IMG/VR virus record: IMGVR_UViG_3300045996_001187
Coordinates: 1-56,492 of that record
DNA from: a virus
Taxonomy: Duplodnaviria > Caudoviricetes
DNA: 56,492 nucleotides
Direction: 5' to 3' (one strand)
Positions 2,869-33,682 of the stretch are shown in pieces. The position numbers were made by a program, and so were the translations under genes. Below the pieces are notes generated by a model, which had not been told where the DNA came from, did no database searches, and saw only the letters and a list, made by a program, of their open reading frames with translations. Position 1 is the stretch's first letter. Each line of letters opens with the position of its first letter.

Positions 2869-2957
2869 ACGTGTCACCTCTCTCGGTTCTGGTATTAGGG
2901 CGAATCCTTCAACTTTCCACGGATGGGGATTCGTCCTCTTTTGTTGCTCTATATGAA

Positions 2958-2986
2958 ATTTTATACAATTTTTCATAATATGTCAA
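2958..2986 (-). promoter_or_regulatory. Sigma70-type promoter TTGACA-17-TAAAAT overlapped by an operator-like repeat
   Basis: Near-consensus spacing; TTTTATAYAATTTTTCRTA occurs at 2959-2977 and 3003-3021. Confidence 0.75.
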
Positions 2987-3031
2987 GGGGCTACACTTGA
3001 TTTTTTATATAATTTTTCGTAGCCTTAAATC

Positions 3032-3271
3032 ATGGTTCCACGTGGAGGCGCACGCGCTAATTCGGGTCGTAAAAAGAAAGACGGGGAGTTCGTCAGTAAC
3101 TACGTTGGCCGGGATATTCGGGCCAATTGGAAGCGGGCCAGTAAGGCGCTCGGTTTATCTCAAACGGCGATACTTGAAGCGGCACTACTCGCGTATTTCA
3201 AGCGCCACAAAATCCCACTCACCGAACCAGACAGCGAGATTTCCGCCGCCTCGCCAAACAGCATGGAATAG
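3032..3271 (+). CDS. Small ribbon-helix-helix-like DNA-binding protein with a basic N-terminal arm
   Basis: GGARANSGRKK then strand-helix-helix (ASKALGLSQTAILEAAL); divergent from the 2986 promoter. Confidence 0.6.
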   Translation: MVPRGGARANSGRKKKDGEFVSNYVGRDIRANWKRASKALGLSQTAILEAALLAYFKRHKIPLTEPDSEISAASPNSME

Positions 3272-3284
3272 AGGTGCCTTAGAA

Positions 3285-3539
3285 ATGAACGAAGTTCAAG
3301 AAGCCATTGCAATCGCCGTAAGGTTCGGCGGTATCTCAGGCGCTCACCATAAGGCGTGGGTTATTGACCAGATGGTTCGGGCTCTTACTGGCTGCCAGCC
3401 AATCGCAAGTCCTGCGACTGAGATTGCGCCCTTCGGAGGATACGGGGAGTCGGAGCATTACACAGAGTTGGTGGCTAGGGCAAAAGTTGGATACGATGGC
3501 CCGGACACTTACTCTTGGGATACTGGTACTGCGCCATGA
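3285..3539 (+). CDS. Phage hypothetical protein (GAHHKAWVIDQMVRAL type)
   Basis: GAGGTG SD; recognisable phage hypothetical motif. Confidence 0.7.
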   Translation: MNEVQEAIAIAVRFGGISGAHHKAWVIDQMVRALTGCQPIASPATEIAPFGGYGESEHYTELVARAKVGYDGPDTYSWDTGTAP

Positions 3540-30870: not shown

Positions 30871-31293
30871 TTACGATTGCAACGCCAAAAAAGCGGCTTC
30901 GACGCGACTTTCGACATCATTCATAATGCCGGACGGCACTTCAAGATAAAGCGCTTTGATAGCTTTCCGCGCTTCGGCAACCTCTGGACACTGATCATCC
31001 TCGGCAGGACCGTATGTTGCTTCGAAAATATCAGGCTTGCACGGGTAAATCTCACCCTGCACGCCTTGAATGATGTAATCGCCCCACGAGACCAGAAGCG
31101 GCCCTTCCAGAGTGCCGATTGAAATAGTACCGTCGCCGGTCCCTTCAATGGTCGGATACAGCGATCCAACTTCGCCGCGTTCCTTTTGCCATGCCTGCCC
31201 CATCCAACCGGGCCAATCCCGGTTATCAGTGCGTCGCTCCTGCGTCATCTGAAATGCTTCAACTACAATCGGCTTTTTCTTGAATTTTGGCAT
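30871..31293 (-). CDS. Conserved phage protein (KKPIVVEAFQ...GDYIIQGVQGEIYPCKPDIF type)
   Basis: Recognisable widespread phage motif. Confidence 0.8.
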   Translation of the reverse strand: MPKFKKKPIVVEAFQMTQERRTDNRDWPGWMGQAWQKERGEVGSLYPTIEGTGDGTISIGTLEGPLLVSWGDYIIQGVQGEIYPCKPDIFEATYGPAEDDQCPEVAEARKAIKALYLEVPSGIMNDVESRVEAAFLALQS

Positions 31294-31508
31294 CAGTAAT
31301 CAATCTCCCACTTCGCAATCGCCCGGTTACACCATTCGCACGAATACCCCGTATCTGTCTCCAACAACATCCCAGTCGTCAAACATCTCGGACACCTGGG
31401 CCTTAGCTTCGAATACGAACCGGATTCCATCTCTCTTTGTCCTAGCCATTCGTCATGGCGGCACAGCGATTCGACTGCCCGTTCGAGTTCATTCAGGCTA
31501 TCGGCCAT
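31293..31508 (-). CDS. Small zinc-ribbon protein
   Basis: CPRC...CEWC. Confidence 0.55.
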   Translation of the reverse strand: MADSLNELERAVESLCRHDEWLGQREMESGSYSKLRPRCPRCLTTGMLLETDTGYSCEWCNRAIAKWEIDY

Positions 31509-31605
31509 GACGTGACCTGGTTGCCCCGAGCCGGTAAAGCCATGCCCCAACGGAAGCTCCACAGAGAAACCCGAACATAGTGCCCCAGAGGAACGCCTCA
31601 AACAT
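31498..31605 (-). CDS. Small single-TM protein (35 aa, MFEAFLWGTMFGFLCGASVGAWLYRLG...)
   Basis: TGATG coupling; GAGGA SD. Confidence 0.5.
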   Translation of the reverse strand: MFEAFLWGTMFGFLCGASVGAWLYRLGATRSRHGR

Positions 31606-31847
31606 CACTCTGTATCCTCCCGGTAACAGGTGCCGTCTGTGTCAGGGCGCGGCTTGCTCAGTTCGGCCTTTATATCTTCGAGGTCGCCATCAGAAAATCC
31701 TTCAAGGTCACGGGCAGTCAGTAGTGGCTTGGCCGGACCAGATTCAGCTAACATTCGGTCAAATTCAGACATGTCTCCGAAGTCATCCGGAAGTTCCATT
31801 TCGCCATGCGACCAGGCGTTTTCTGATTGTTTCGGTGTGATGCTCAT
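31605..31847 (-). CDS. Acidic hypothetical protein, first ORF after the RNA leader
   Basis: ORF coupled to the downstream gene. Confidence 0.5.
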   Translation of the reverse strand: MSITPKQSENAWSHGEMELPDDFGDMSEFDRMLAESGPAKPLLTARDLEGFSDGDLEDIKAELSKPRPDTDGTCYREDTE

Positions 31848-31869
31848 AAAAGGTGCCTGTCTCTCCAAG

Positions 31870-32452
31870 CTGTCAAGCCTCTGGGCTCTCTTGTTGTCCC
31901 TGCGATCAGGCCCCCGGCTTTCAGGTCACATTCTGTCGTCCGTGTGATACGCCTACCTTCATTGGGTAGTAGGCCCCGCCTTTAATCCAAAGCCGGTGCG
32001 ACGAAAAGCCCCTCAGGGCGTTGGCAGCCATGGTAGGAATCGAACCTACTTCGCCGATAGTTGCGGCCCTGTCGCGCCAACCGGTGTTGCTTCAGGACTA
32101 TCGACCGCTTTGCCATTAAGCTACCAGGCTAATTGTGCGAGGATACGTTCACTCTACCCCGCGTTACCCTCTCCCTGAACGCTATGACAGGAACTTAACC
32201 CTGACCACCCAGAGGGATATAAGACAACCATGCCCCCGAAGGAACATAGTGGAACATCTGCGCCCTACCATGCACTAACACGGCTCGGACTTCCACACCT
32301 CTCGCGTGTGGCGGGGTCGGCTCCCTGAATCGCTAATGGTTTTGCAAAGCACTATGAGCAACAGGTCTCACCATTCGGAGGTGCCAGGGCAGGTTTATGA
32401 GTCCTACCCCGGCTCCAGGGGACGATGAGGGGCACGCAGGGAGCGACGTGCA
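31870..32452 (-). ncRNA. Large structured non-coding RNA / late-operon leader with an embedded tRNA-like domain
   Basis: No credible minus-strand ORF; many nested helices, a cUUCGg tetraloop and an upstream GGGTATACT. Confidence 0.6.
32022..32130 (-). tRNA. Atypical tRNA-like element (109 nt) with an expanded anticodon arm and no definable anticodon
   Basis: D-arm GCTT-AATGGCA-AAGC; T-arm GTAGG-TTCGATT-CCTAC; encoded CCA; 9-bp anticodon stem enclosing 35 nt. Confidence 0.75.
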
Positions 32453-32525
32453 ATCTAAAGTATACCCATCAGCAAATAAAAATCGCGTCAATTACTAGCA
32501 ATTCATACAACTATGAAATAACTAT

Positions 32526-32762
32526 TCAAAACCTTTTCCATAATCCACTCTTGGAATCCGGTTTTTGACGCACTTCTTTGATATAGGCATCCAATTTTAG
32601 AGCTTGTTCGAAAGTGATTTTTCTTCGCTTGCCCTTGCGGAATCGCCCAAGAAAGCTCCGCATGTGGTGATGAACGGCCCCGCTCGAAATACCGTAGCGT
32701 GCGGCGAAGTAAGCGGCATCCCAGAAAGGTCTATCGTCGGTTATGGGGGGGAGGTTAGGCAT
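32526..32762 (-). CDS. Small HTH-like protein, candidate late-gene regulator
   Basis: FAARYGISSGAVHHH; last early gene before the late promoter. Confidence 0.5.
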   Translation of the reverse strand: MPNLPPITDDRPFWDAAYFAARYGISSGAVHHHMRSFLGRFRKGKRRKITFEQALKLDAYIKEVRQKPDSKSGLWKRF

Positions 32763-33231
32763 TTTGGGTGGCCTCCGGTTCGTAGATAAACACGTTGTCC
32801 GGCAAGCACTCCAAAAGCGGTAGAACATCCTCGCGATTCAACTGGCCCGCACCGATGCCGGGGAAGTTGAGGGCGATGCGGGTGTAGTGAATCGAAGTCT
32901 CGGCAAGCCCCTTGAGACTGAGTTCAATCAATGACAACCGCGCAGGTTCATGCCAGTGAATTTTGACTTGCAAAATACCGATGTCGGTGTCGGGAGCATC
33001 AAGTCGAGGCGGGAACGCCAATGCTCCATAATACGTACCAGAGCCGCCCTTTGCCCTGATTGCACGCCCTGCCTCGCCGGGCAACCACGGATACCGTTGT
33101 TTAGCCTCCAGCGCCGCACCCTTGCCCATCACGAGCTCACCGCGACTATTCAGGGTGCTGTTAGCGGTCACGAGTATCAGGTCAGCCCGGCCTACTTCGT
33201 CCCACAGATTTCCCTTAACGAATGTTGGCAT
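32755..33231 (-). CDS. Macro domain (ADP-ribose binding/hydrolase) protein
   Basis: KGNLW...TAN...VMGKGAA...PGIGAGQL. Confidence 0.85.
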   Translation of the reverse strand: MPTFVKGNLWDEVGRADLILVTANSTLNSRGELVMGKGAALEAKQRYPWLPGEAGRAIRAKGGSGTYYGALAFPPRLDAPDTDIGILQVKIHWHEPARLSLIELSLKGLAETSIHYTRIALNFPGIGAGQLNREDVLPLLECLPDNVFIYEPEATQNA

Positions 33232-33682
33232 CTCTCCCCTCCCCTTCGGCCCTCGATAGAGCCGCAAGCAAATATCGGCCGTTTTCAGTCGCGTGTTTGA
33301 GATGGACGGACACACCTTTGCCCCGCCCTTGCTCAATTAGCCAAACTCGCTCACCTTCATCGCAAAGCGAGAAAACAGCCTTTTTCAGCGCATTGATGAC
33401 CTCACGGTCACTCTCTACCTCTGCCACCAGCGCATCGATGTCGGTGCGGGCGTTGTTCATGAAATCGGTATCAGCTCGAACCTGTTCAATAACCCGCTCA
33501 CACGCCGCTTGGTCATTCTTGTCCATCGCTCGCACGGTCGGGCCGACGGACTGCATTTGAAATTCGTCGTAGTGCGTCTGTCCCGGTTCGTAGTTGATAT
33601 GCTCCCAGTCTGCCTCCCACGGTTTCGTCGCCTTCCCTGCCCGCGCTTTGATTGGTTCGAGGTCTAAAATTGGTTTGCTCAT
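33215..33682 (-). CDS. Phage protein, Ead/Ea22-like motif
   Basis: KATKPW...DTDFMNNARTDIDALVAEVE. Confidence 0.65.
   Translation of the reverse strand: MSKPILDLEPIKARAGKATKPWEADWEHINYEPGQTHYDEFQMQSVGPTVRAMDKNDQAACERVIEQVRADTDFMNNARTDIDALVAEVESDREVINALKKAVFSLCDEGERVWLIEQGRGKGVSVHLKHATENGRYLLAALSRAEGEGRDANIR

What the first reader, a model, noticed from the sequence alone, without database searches (positions are those of the whole stretch)
31870..32452. ~580-nt ornate RNA at the head of the late operon: 5' domain, tRNA-like core, 3' domain
The minus-strand 5' part has long-range TGCAC/GTGCA and GTCG-CTCCCTG/CAGGGAG-CGAC helices. It also has GCCGGGGTAGG/CCTGCCCTGGC, AATGGT/ACCATT, CCACAC/GTGTGG, ACTATGTTCC-TTCG-GGGGCATGGT and GCGTT/AACGC, the last with a possible CCCTCT/AGAGGG pseudoknot. 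After the CCA there is a nested multibranch domain: GGGCTTTT/GAGAGCCC, CCGGCTTT/AAAGCCGG, GCCTAC/GTAGGC, TCACA/TGTGA and CCTG/CAGG. Frequent G-U pairs suggest RNA-level selection. Phage GOLLD RNAs are known to embed tRNAs, but I cannot match this to a known family. It could be a new large ncRNA or a set of RNAs released by tRNA-type processing.
Basis: partly seen in the sequence, partly recalled or inferred. Interest (0 to 1): 0.85.

Follow-up and report, generated by a model that had tools for sequence, protein, structure and literature searches.

The report
Phage pseudoknot RNA beside tRNA-like element
The long non-coding stretch ahead of this phage's lysis and packaging genes contains a roughly 90-base pseudoknotted RNA from an apparently undescribed family that many phages keep inside their tRNA gene clusters, followed by a degenerate tRNA look-alike, while the remaining 400 or so bases have no detectable relatives.

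Summary
The whole region folds no better than shuffles (z -0.97). The 5' part does (z -2.4 to -2.7, minus strand only). The 3' part does not (z -0.58).

Rfam finds only a weak tRNA match with a 38-nt insert; GOLLD, ROOL and ribozyme families do not match.

One part is certainly real: a 93-nt module at 32226-32134 (-). Pattern scans recovered 58 distinct copies from phage and metagenome contigs. These include Myxococcus phage Mx1 and 62 Streptomyces phage records.

- Three helices covary strongly (93.6% of cells paired against 73.6% in shuffles).
- A 7-bp pseudoknot has one compensatory change.
- There was one copy in each of 6 phage genomes searched.
- It always lies on the same strand as neighbouring tRNAs, often 3-8 nt from the tRNA on either side.
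- No Rfam family matches it.

The window's tRNA-like element starts in the slot where a tRNA follows the module in other phages. I read the region as a composite leader carrying two tRNA-array-type units, probably released by tRNA-processing enzymes. The module's function is unknown. Transcription could not be tested.

The parts
32453..32525 (-). AT-rich stretch after the stop codon of the 100-aa ORF. It holds TTGACG (32491-32486) and TATACT (32464-32459), 21 nt apart. It is a possible promoter of non-consensus type; the transcription start is unknown.
   Evidence: Sequence read. The consensus scan found 0 promoter-like sites in 31000-33500.
32227..32452 (-). 5' domain: predicted multi-helix fold, specific to this phage in the data I could reach.
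   Evidence: MFE -94.6 to -95 kcal/mol, z -2.36 and -2.74. The complement gives -73.9 kcal/mol, z +1.38. No similar DNA was found in INPHARED or in any fetched locus.
32227..32250 (-). 10-bp hairpin with a UUCG loop followed by TGTCTTATAT. It looks like an intrinsic terminator and lies 10 nt before helix H1 of the module.
   Evidence: Terminator-like site (2 found against 2.4 expected from shuffles, so not significant by itself). It is present in the MFE and centroid folds.
32134..32226 (-). Conserved pseudoknotted RNA module. H1 is 32216-32211 paired with 32172-32167. The H2 hairpin is 32205-32186. The pseudoknot strands are 32182-32176 (GCGTTCA) and 32151-32145 (TGAACGT). H3 is 32162-32157 paired with 32142-32137, with a 14-nt conserved loop.
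   Evidence: Covariance model R1 scores 93.7 bits, E 1.8e-20, and it is the only copy in the window. The window sequence was in the training alignment, so this match is by construction. Independent support: 85% identity to Mx1, and covariation in 58 distinct sequences.
32022..32130 (-). Degenerate tRNA-like element. It has a D arm, a T arm, an acceptor stem with two mismatches and an encoded CCA. The anticodon arm is replaced by an irregular hairpin of about 53 nt with no 7-nt anticodon loop.
   Evidence: Rfam RF00005 at 33.5 bits against 29. ARAGORN finds none. Fold. It starts 15 nt after the module core, the slot where a tRNA follows the module in 13 of 60 rows.
31848..32021 (-). Complementary segments exist but have no statistical or comparative support. 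It ends in a weak hairpin plus T-run just before the ATG.
   Evidence: z -0.58. Weak terminator-like site at 31870-31855. No homologues.
31605..31847 (-). First ORF downstream (80 aa, acidic, no family match, no clear Shine-Dalgarno sequence). Small membrane-type ORFs, a holin-like ORF, a CHAP endolysin and the large terminase follow.

Best explanation
The region is a composite non-coding leader on the minus strand, ahead of the lysis and packaging genes of a complete 56.5-kb phage genome. It is not shown to be a single RNA.

Two adjacent units are of the kind found in phage tRNA arrays.

1. A 93-nt RNA module (32226-32134). It has a 7-bp closing helix H1, a hairpin H2, and a hairpin H3. Seven bases of H3's invariant 14-nt loop pair back to the invariant strand GCGUUCA inside the H1 junction, forming a pseudoknot.

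2. A degenerate tRNA-like element (32130-32022, with CCA). It keeps the D arm, the T arm and a mismatched acceptor stem, which from general knowledge are the parts that tRNA-end-processing enzymes recognise. It has lost a usable anticodon arm.

Inferred mechanism, not shown: the stretch is transcribed with the late genes. RNase P would cut at the 5' end of the tRNA-like element, and tRNA 3'-end enzymes would cut after its CCA. This would free the module, with or without the 5' domain, from the mRNA. The logic resembles tRNA punctuation, or the MALAT1-mascRNA arrangement recalled from general knowledge.

I further infer that the released module is a stand-alone, single-copy phage RNA. Its invariant core would bind a partner that is conserved across very different hosts, or would carry out chemistry of its own. 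Which of these holds is unknown.

The 5' domain is probably structured RNA specific to this phage. The 3' stretch is probably just spacer.
For: The module is real and conserved:
- 85% identity over 73 nt to Myxococcus phage Mx1, inside its tRNA cluster.
- Pattern scans gave 20 viral loci, 1 more from a looser pattern, 1 more from a pattern that left the pseudoknot free, 44 metagenome loci of which I dropped 2, and 1 of 185,579 species genomes.
- 62 Streptomyces phage records in INPHARED carry it.

Structure, on 58 distinct sequences:
- 93.6% of cells paired against 73.6% in shuffles (0 of 500 shuffles as high), and 38-51% when partners are slid.
- Pairs with changes on both sides: H1 6 of 7, H2 6 of 6, H3 6 of 6.
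- The pseudoknot has one compensatory U-A to G-C change (L105). Its first pair is G-U in 55 sequences, A-U in 2 and G-C in 1.

It is not in Rfam 15. No hit over the module in the window, L002, L003, 8 loci or 12 loci.

Copy number: one copy in the window and one in each of 5 of 5 phage records of 131-436 kb.

tRNA-slot behaviour (60 rows):
- 0 antisense tRNAs within 1.5 kb.
- A tRNA ends 34-43 nt before the core in 15 rows, which puts H1 about 3-8 nt after the tRNA.
- A tRNA starts 12-16 nt after the core in 13 rows.
- The window's tRNA-like element starts 15 nt after the core.

Non-canonical tRNA-like RNAs also sit beside the module where there is no array. L102 has a 92-nt Rfam tRNA hit at 31 bits that ARAGORN misses. 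L020 has a YrlA-like permuted element at 29 bits directly upstream.

The tRNA-like element itself rests.

There is no conserved protein neighbour and no common downstream gene, which argues against gene-specific cis regulation.
Against: Nothing shows that the region is transcribed, or where any RNA begins or ends. The sequencing-run tool was unreachable in 4 of 4 tries.

RNase P or RNase Z cleavage is inferred from spacing alone. The tRNA-like acceptor stem has two adjacent mismatches, and ARAGORN rejects the element.

14 of 60 module copies have no ARAGORN tRNA within 1.5 kb. Several of these lie a few bases after a good promoter and 10-45 nt before a start codon. That would also suit a cis-acting 5'-UTR element.

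The copies were found with patterns that fixed the core sequence. Core invariance is therefore partly ascertained, and pseudoknot covariation rests on one sequence plus three one-sided changes.

In L003 and L076 the module is embedded in a larger conserved RNA. A stand-alone 90-nt product is therefore not universal.

The closest phages by a neighbouring protein (8 loci) and by TerL (13 of 26 loci searched with the model; blastn on all 26) lack the module and any similar DNA. The arrangement in this window therefore cannot be checked by synteny.
Confidence: 0.55

Rival explanations
1. One large ornate RNA of about 600-680 nt. The conserved module would be the core, and the 5' and 3' domains would be lineage-specific peripheral domains, with the tRNA-like element embedded. 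This parallels GOLLD, which has a conserved region, a variable region and sometimes tRNAs in its linker.
For: L003 and L076 share at least 430 nt of conserved non-coding sequence around the module, at 79% identity. The predicted fold has a long-range closing helix, and 18 of 103 predicted pairs change on both sides. By my reading, L003's RNA ends in a T arm, acceptor strand and CCA. The window's 5' domain is more stable than shuffles on the minus strand only. The 606-nt MFE pairs the extreme 5' and 3' ends. GOLLD's architecture and embedded tRNAs are described in passages of PMC12286853.
Against: The whole-region fold has z -0.97 and the 3' domain z -0.58. There is no GOLLD or ROOL match. No homologue of either flanking domain was found. 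In most loci the module is tightly flanked by tRNAs and must be a unit of about 90 nt. The L003/L076 evidence rests on two sequences, and their flanks do not resemble the window's.
Confidence: 0.2
2. The module is a cis-acting element of the nascent transcript. It could be a processive antiterminator of the put-RNA type, or a 5'-terminal or internal structure that blocks exonucleases or guides processing. Either role would serve long untranslated tRNA arrays and late operons alike.
For: It sits at the head of the late genes here. It lies within about 5-40 nt of good TTGACA-17-TAnnnT promoters in L034, L015, L029 and the L075 group, and after a promoter plus tRNA-like RNA in L020 and L102. In L102 an intrinsic terminator lies between the module and a gene that has no promoter of its own. 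The invariant loop contains TAGAGT, a -10-like word; putL RNAs carry a -10-like pause signal, and put RNA forms a triplex (passages of PMC9378689).
Against: In arrays the module has no fixed first position, for example after 12 tRNAs in L022 and after 8 in L039. In the window and in L081 the terminator-like hairpins lie upstream of it, not downstream. There is one copy per genome even in 300-436-kb phages with many operons. Put RNA is two stem-loops without a pseudoknot.
Confidence: 0.15
3. The module is a new small self-cleaving ribozyme that trims transcripts next to tRNAs, in the way proposed for theta (minimal HDV-like) ribozymes.
For: Roughly 25 invariant bases sit in junctions and loops between freely covarying stems, a pattern typical of ribozymes. 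It lies 3-8 nt after tRNA 3' ends in 15 rows. Theta ribozymes lie within 5 nt of phage tRNAs and are proposed to process 3' trailers (passages of PMC10879173). The pseudoknot helix begins with a G-U pair, as does P1 of HDV-like ribozymes (the HDV feature is recalled).
Against: The strand order does not allow the HDV-like nested double pseudoknot. Only 5 nt lie where P3 and L3 should be, and the base after the pseudoknot strand is not a conserved C (my inspection). No ribozyme family of Rfam matches. Spacing to the neighbouring tRNAs varies by several bases, so a cut could not give exact tRNA ends. Self-cleavage would serve no obvious purpose in copies that start a transcript.
Confidence: 0.08

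Closest known systems
GOLLD (RF01998) and ROOL (RF03087) RNAs
   Same: They are phage and prophage non-coding RNAs of unknown function that are often encoded near tRNA islands. GOLLD has a conserved part, a variable part and sometimes tRNAs in its linker (passages of PMC12286853; PMC5737381).
   Different: There is no covariance-model match. The conserved unit here is about 90 nt, not 580-800 nt. It usually fills a single tRNA-sized slot.
Theta (minimal HDV-like) ribozymes beside phage tRNAs
   Same: They are small structured RNAs placed within a few bases of tRNA genes in Caudoviricetes genomes.
   Different: The topology is different: no P3/L3 and no conserved catalytic C. The module lies on either side of tRNAs and also in 5' UTRs. 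Its known hosts are soil bacteria (Streptomyces, Myxococcus), not gut Bacteroidota or Bacillota. The theta consensus figure and supplements were not available to me.
Bacterial Y RNA-like YrlA (RF02553)
   Same: These are tRNA-mimicking non-coding RNAs also found in phages (abstract listing of PMC4201824). YrlA-like elements lie next to or near the module in L020 and L077.
   Different: The window's tRNA-like element is not permuted and gives no YrlA hit. The window phage has no Ro60/TROVE or RtcB gene. The module itself is not tRNA-like by Rfam.
Stable small RNAs in the phage T4 tRNA cluster (species 1 and 2, rnaC and rnaD), and MALAT1-mascRNA tRNA-like punctuation
   Same: These are non-tRNA RNAs co-transcribed with, and cut out beside, tRNA or tRNA-like units. 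Both are recalled from general knowledge; no call covers them.
   Different: No sequence or structural relation was tested. They serve only as analogies for the proposed processing.
HK022 put antiterminator RNA
   Same: It is a phage RNA of about 70 nt placed just after promoters that acts on RNA polymerase. It contains a triplex and, in putL, a -10-like word.
   Different: Put RNA is two stem-loops in a V shape with no pseudoknot. There is no sequence relation, and no functional test was made.

Membership tests
GOLLD / ROOL large ornate RNAs | Match to the Rfam covariance model (RF01998 / RF03087) | tested here: not met
   No hit at gathering threshold on the whole window. No hit at E<=10 on 31500-32800.
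GOLLD / ROOL large ornate RNAs | Several hundred nucleotides of conserved, covarying multi-junction structure | tested here: not met
   Only 93 nt have relatives. Whole-region z is -0.97. Covariation of the flanks cannot be tested for lack of homologues.
tRNA (RF00005) | Cloverleaf scoring above Rfam's gathering score | tested here: met
   33.5 bits against 29, at 32130-32025 (-).
tRNA (RF00005) | 5-bp anticodon stem with a 7-nt loop carrying an anticodon; regular acceptor stem | tested here: not met
   There is a 38-nt insert. The fold gives a 9-bp stem and an irregular arm ending in a 5-nt loop. The acceptor stem has two non-standard pairs (NC marks). ARAGORN calls nothing.
YrlA / bacterial Y RNA | Permuted tRNA-like domain closed by a Ro-binding stem; a Ro60 (TROVE) gene in the genome | tested here: not met
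   No YrlA hit in the window at E<=10. No TROVE gene.
HDV-like / theta ribozymes | Nested double pseudoknot in the order P1-P2-P3/L3-P1'-(P4)-P2', with a catalytic C in J4/2 | tested here: not met
   Here the strand order is H1-H2-PK5'-H1'-H3(5')-PK3'-H3(3'). Only UAGAG lies where P3 and L3 should be, and the base after the PK3' strand varies (my inspection). No Rfam ribozyme hit.
New family defined here (tRNA-array pseudoknot module, model R1) | H1 of 7 bp, H3 of 6-7 bp with loop UAGAGUGAACGUA, the strand RCGUUCAGGGA, and a 7-bp pseudoknot between them | tested here: met
   The window copy has all of these features. It is 85-93% identical to copies in Mx1, L081 and L093.
New family defined here (tRNA-array pseudoknot module, model R1) | Single copy per phage genome, same strand as adjacent tRNA or tRNA-like genes | tested here: met
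   One copy in the window. The tRNA-like element lies 15 nt after the core on the same strand.
HK022 put RNA | Two stem-loops that bind the RNA polymerase beta' zinc-binding domain and suppress termination | not testable with these tools
   The architecture differs. Function needs transcription assays.

The most novel reading that the evidence does not exclude
The 90-nt module is the functional core of a new class of phage RNA with an activity of its own. That activity could be catalysis, or capture of a universally conserved part of the translation, tRNA or transcription machinery. Under this reading, some lineages, including this window and the L003/L076 group, have elaborated the core into an ornate RNA of about 600 nt that carries a tRNA-like tail. 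That would make it a third tRNA-island RNA beside GOLLD and ROOL.
Probability: 0.2. Interest if true: 0.85.

Novelty: new variant of a known kind. Interest (0 to 1): 0.66.

Why it matters
Phage tRNA islands are known to harbour large RNAs of unknown function, GOLLD and ROOL. This work adds a small RNA with very strong comparative support.

- It is present once per genome in phages from 56 to 436 kb.
- Cultured carriers infect hosts as far apart as Streptomyces and Myxococcus.
- It has about 25 invariant bases and a pseudoknot.
- It is absent from Rfam 15 and is annotated as nothing or as 'hypothetical protein' in GenBank records.

An invariant core in phages of such different hosts points to a universal partner or an intrinsic activity. 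Cultured carriers exist (Streptomyces BE-type phages such as Jay2Jay, and Mx1), so the question can be tested at the bench now.

For this window, the result means the 'ornate 580-nt RNA' should be treated as a composite in which only about 200 nt are explained.

Tried and rejected
- **Known RNA families.** Rfam gave only the tRNA hit over the region. It gave no hit over the module in 22 other loci.
- **tmRNA or intron-bearing tRNA.** ARAGORN found none in the window. Removing the insert does not restore a canonical anticodon loop, by my inspection.
- **Group I intron core and HDV-like fold.** I rejected both on strand order by inspection; H3 is strongly supported.
- **Promoter.** My first reading of TTGACG-17-TATACT was wrong. 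The spacing is 21 nt, and the scan finds no promoter. An earlier notebook entry still carries the wrong spacing and slightly wrong H3 coordinates and counts; the numbers in this report supersede it.
- **Relatives of the phage.** Eight loci found through the 140-aa neighbour protein and 26 through TerL have no module and no similar DNA. These include a 56.5-kb contig with 58% TerL identity. The phosphatase-like neighbour gave no relatives.
- **Partner protein.** ORF clustering around 67 loci gave only HNH homing endonucleases (16 loci, none in the window) and spurious frames over RNA genes. Downstream genes have no common family. The window phage has no Ro60 or RtcB gene.
- **More members of the L003-type large RNA.** None found.
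- **Loose pattern.** 25 of the 26 new loci were chance coding matches.
- **Dropped before alignment A3.** L104 and L082 (no convincing H1/H3), L088 and L093 (truncated), L001 and L033 (duplicates of the window and of a Jay2Jay copy), and identical copies.
- **Literature.** Seven searches turned up no description of this motif. This is not proof of absence. Supplements, for example the 224-motif drawings of PMC5737381, were not seen; I rely on the Rfam scans for those motifs.
Full report
**Setting.** The window is a complete virus record of 56,492 bp with direct terminal repeats. Genes around the finding run on the minus strand. Upstream are early-type ORFs, including a phosphatase-like ORF and a 100-aa ORF with no family match. 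Downstream are small ORFs, a holin-like ORF, a CHAP endolysin and the large terminase. Between the stop codon of the 100-aa ORF (32526) and an ATG at 31847 lie 678 nt without a credible ORF.

**Checking the observation.** The statistical support is uneven.
- The whole 606 nt folds to -231.6 kcal/mol against -225.2 for shuffles. That is z -0.97, with 3 of 20 shuffles as good.
- The 5' part (32452-32217 or 32452-32227) gives z -2.36 and z -2.74, with 4 and 2 of 200 shuffles as good.
- Its reverse complement is 21 kcal/mol weaker, at z +1.38. The stability therefore depends on G-U pairs of the minus strand.
- The 3' part gives z -0.58. The tRNA-like part alone gives z -0.49.
- The promoter and terminator scan found no sigma-70-like promoter and two terminator-like hairpins, no more than expected by chance. 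One is the 10-bp UUCG hairpin at 32250-32227.

**Known families.** Rfam 15 matches only tRNA: 33.5 bits against a gathering score of 29, at 32130-32025 (-), with 38 extra bases in the anticodon arm. Nothing else credible appears even at E<=10. ARAGORN finds no tRNA or tmRNA. The element has a normal D arm and T arm, an acceptor stem with two non-standard pairs, a discriminator base and an encoded CCA. Its anticodon arm is a 9-bp stem that continues into an irregular hairpin ending in a 5-nt loop. It is a tRNA look-alike that cannot decode.

**The lead.** A blastn search of the gap against 50,697 phage records gave one hit. It covers 73 nt (window 32216-32144) at 85% identity to Myxococcus phage Mx1, inside that phage's tRNA cluster and under a 'hypothetical protein' annotated on the opposite strand. 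I then ran pattern scans built from the shared words.
- A first 17-base word found only L003, plus two chance coding matches.
- A two-part pattern found 20 viral loci.
- A looser pattern returned 46 loci: 20 already known, 25 chance coding matches and one new member, L039.
- A pattern that left the pseudoknot bases free returned 8 loci, 4 of them new: one member (L105) and 3 chance matches.
- The metagenome scan gave 44 loci.
- The scan of one genome per species (185,579 species) gave a single contig, labelled as a Bathyarchaeota MAG. I did not check whether that contig is viral.
- The Streptomyces-type copies match 62 INPHARED records of Streptomyces phages of about 130 kb. There they lie in an unannotated gap or under 'hypothetical protein' in the tRNA array, as in Jay2Jay.

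**Anatomy of the module.** After removing duplicates, two truncated copies and two doubtful loci (L082, L104), 58 distinct sequences were aligned. In window coordinates on the minus strand:
- H1: 32216-32211 paired with 32172-32167.
- H2 hairpin: 32205-32186.
- Invariant strand GCGUUCA-GGGA: 32182-32172.
- H3: 32162-32157 paired with 32142-32137.
- H3 loop: UAGAG-UGAACGU-AN, in which UGAACGU (32151-32145) pairs with GCGUUCA.

Counting pairs for this structure gave 93.6% of 1475 cells paired. Shuffles gave 73.6% (0 of 500 as high). Partners slid by 1-3 columns gave 38-51%. Pairs with changes on both sides numbered 6 of 7 in H1, 6 of 6 in the two H2 segments and 6 of 6 in H3 (the earlier 22-sequence count is).

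The pseudoknot is nearly invariant, partly because the search patterns fixed it. The one member found with those positions left free (L105, a 436-kb phage) carries GCGUGCA with UGCACGU, a compensatory U-A to G-C change. The first pair is G-U in 55 sequences, A-U in 2 and G-C in 1.

The conserved G-U pair, further G-U pairs in the stems, and H2 lengths that vary by numbers not divisible by three all point to RNA of this strand, not a protein or a DNA site.

The 5-nt and 2-nt loop segments around the pseudoknot strand suggest that UAGAG runs along the groove of the pseudoknot helix. That would explain why both are invariant. This is my inference and is untested.

**Distribution and context.**
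- A covariance model (R1) finds one copy in the window. The window was in the training set.
- It finds exactly one copy in each of five phage records of 131-436 kb.
- In 60 rows examined with ARAGORN, no antisense tRNA lies within 1.5 kb.
- A same-strand tRNA ends 34-43 nt before the core in 15 rows, so H1 begins about 3-8 nt after the tRNA. A same-strand tRNA starts 12-16 nt after the core in 13 rows, about 3-7 nt after H3. Neighbouring tRNA identities are varied.
- Fourteen rows, the window among them, have no ARAGORN tRNA nearby.
- In several of those, the module lies just after a good TTGACA-17-TAnnnT promoter and 10-45 nt before a start codon, or follows a non-canonical tRNA-like RNA. Examples are L034, the L075 group, L063/L095, L020 with a YrlA-like permuted element, and L102 with a 92-nt tRNA-like element and a terminator before the next gene.
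- Downstream genes share no family.
- ORF clustering around 67 loci found only HNH homing endonucleases as a recurring neighbour, none of them in the window.
- The window phage has no Ro60 or RtcB gene.

**What this means for the window.** The tRNA-like element begins 15 nt after the module core, which is the slot a tRNA takes in the arrays. The window therefore carries a two-unit 'mini-array', module plus tRNA look-alike, set in a leader ahead of the late genes.

The parts of the look-alike that are kept are the acceptor, D and T arms and the CCA. From general knowledge, these are what RNase P and the 3'-end enzymes recognise. The part that is lost is the one needed for decoding.

None of these steps is shown here.

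**The flanks.** No DNA similar to the 5' or 3' domains was found in any of these:
- INPHARED;
- the first 12 fetched loci;
- the 44 metagenome loci;
- eight loci of phages sharing a neighbouring protein;
- 26 loci sharing TerL, by blastn; 13 of these were also searched with R1.

The best TerL relative is a 56.5-kb contig that shares only TerL in this region. Covariation of the flanks therefore cannot be tested.

The 5' domain is probably structured RNA, given its strand-specific stability. The 3' stretch has no support.

The single-large-RNA reading stays open because L003 and L076 share at least 430 nt of conserved non-coding sequence around their module. That sequence has a predicted closing helix, and 18 of 103 predicted pairs change on both sides. 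The evidence rests on two sequences only, and no further members were found.

**Function.** It is unknown. I rank the readings as follows.
1. A stand-alone, single-copy RNA excised by tRNA-type processing. It would bind a partner conserved across very different hosts, or act by itself.
2. The core of a larger ornate RNA in some lineages.
3. A cis-acting element of the nascent transcript, acting on antitermination, stability or processing. Put RNA is the nearest precedent but has a different architecture.
4. A new self-cleaving ribozyme, analogous to theta ribozymes, whose fold it cannot adopt.

**Novelty.** No Rfam 15 family matches the module in the window or in 22 other loci. Seven literature searches found no description. 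For the papers cited I saw search listings, abstracts and selected passages only, and no supplements. Comparisons to T4 species 1/2 RNAs, to MALAT1-mascRNA and to HDV P1 are recalled, not tested.

**Limits.**
- The members were collected with fixed-word patterns, so the family's true breadth and the variability of its core are underestimated.
- Transcription, RNA ends and processing are untested, because the sequencing-run tool could not be reached.

Noticed in passing
L002 (Myxococcus phage Mx1 OR576727.2) locus 381-757 and 2622-2690: ARAGORN calls a tmRNA (tag VNTNVFGSQMMAAA) and a tRNA-Cys(GCA) that are not in the record's feature table. A small 'Hef-like endonuclease' CDS overlaps the tmRNA call, and a minus-strand 'hypothetical protein' overlaps the module.
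   Followed up: partly
L003 1062-1765 and L076 about 800-1260: Two contigs share a conserved non-coding RNA of at least 430 nt built around the module (79% identity, predicted long-range closing helix). L076 has its own TTGACA-17-TAGAGT promoter. L003's copy ends in a T arm, acceptor strand and CCA that neither ARAGORN nor Rfam calls.
   Followed up: partly
L020 1916-2039; L077 2927-2994 (-): These are permuted tRNA-like (YrlA-like) elements scoring 29.3 and 39.7 bits, below Rfam's gathering score of 69. The L020 one lies directly upstream of the module behind a consensus promoter and folds well (z -3.36).
   Followed up: partly
L039 about 2900-3520: Within a phage tRNA array, two non-tRNA stretches of 200-400 nt share the word CACAGAAAGGCGTGGGT. 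This may be another recurrent array-resident RNA.
   Followed up: no
L102 935-1300: A compact unit: a -10-like TAGAAT, a 92-nt tRNA-like element with an extra arm (z -3.0), the module, about 170 nt, an intrinsic terminator, then immediately a ribosome-binding site and a gene with no promoter of its own.
   Followed up: partly
window 32526-32828 (-): The 100-aa ORF just upstream of the gap has no Pfam or PHROG match. Its position before the late genes would suit a late-gene regulator.
   Followed up: no
window 32217-32226 and L081 12781-12790: The closest module relatives (L081/L094, 89% identity) share with the window an AU-rich word (CTTATAT / CTTAATAT) directly before H1, and a stable hairpin 10-16 nt further upstream. 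If that word were a -10 element, the transcript would start inside H1, so it is more likely part of the RNA or a cleavage site.
   Followed up: partly
Streptomyces phage loci L014-L032 (for example L015 about 1850-1880): The word GATGATGTAGAGTAGT recurs around the tRNA array and matches a -10 element of the TAGAGT type, preceded in some copies by TTGACA at 17 nt. The module there begins about 11 nt after such a -10 element.
   Followed up: partly
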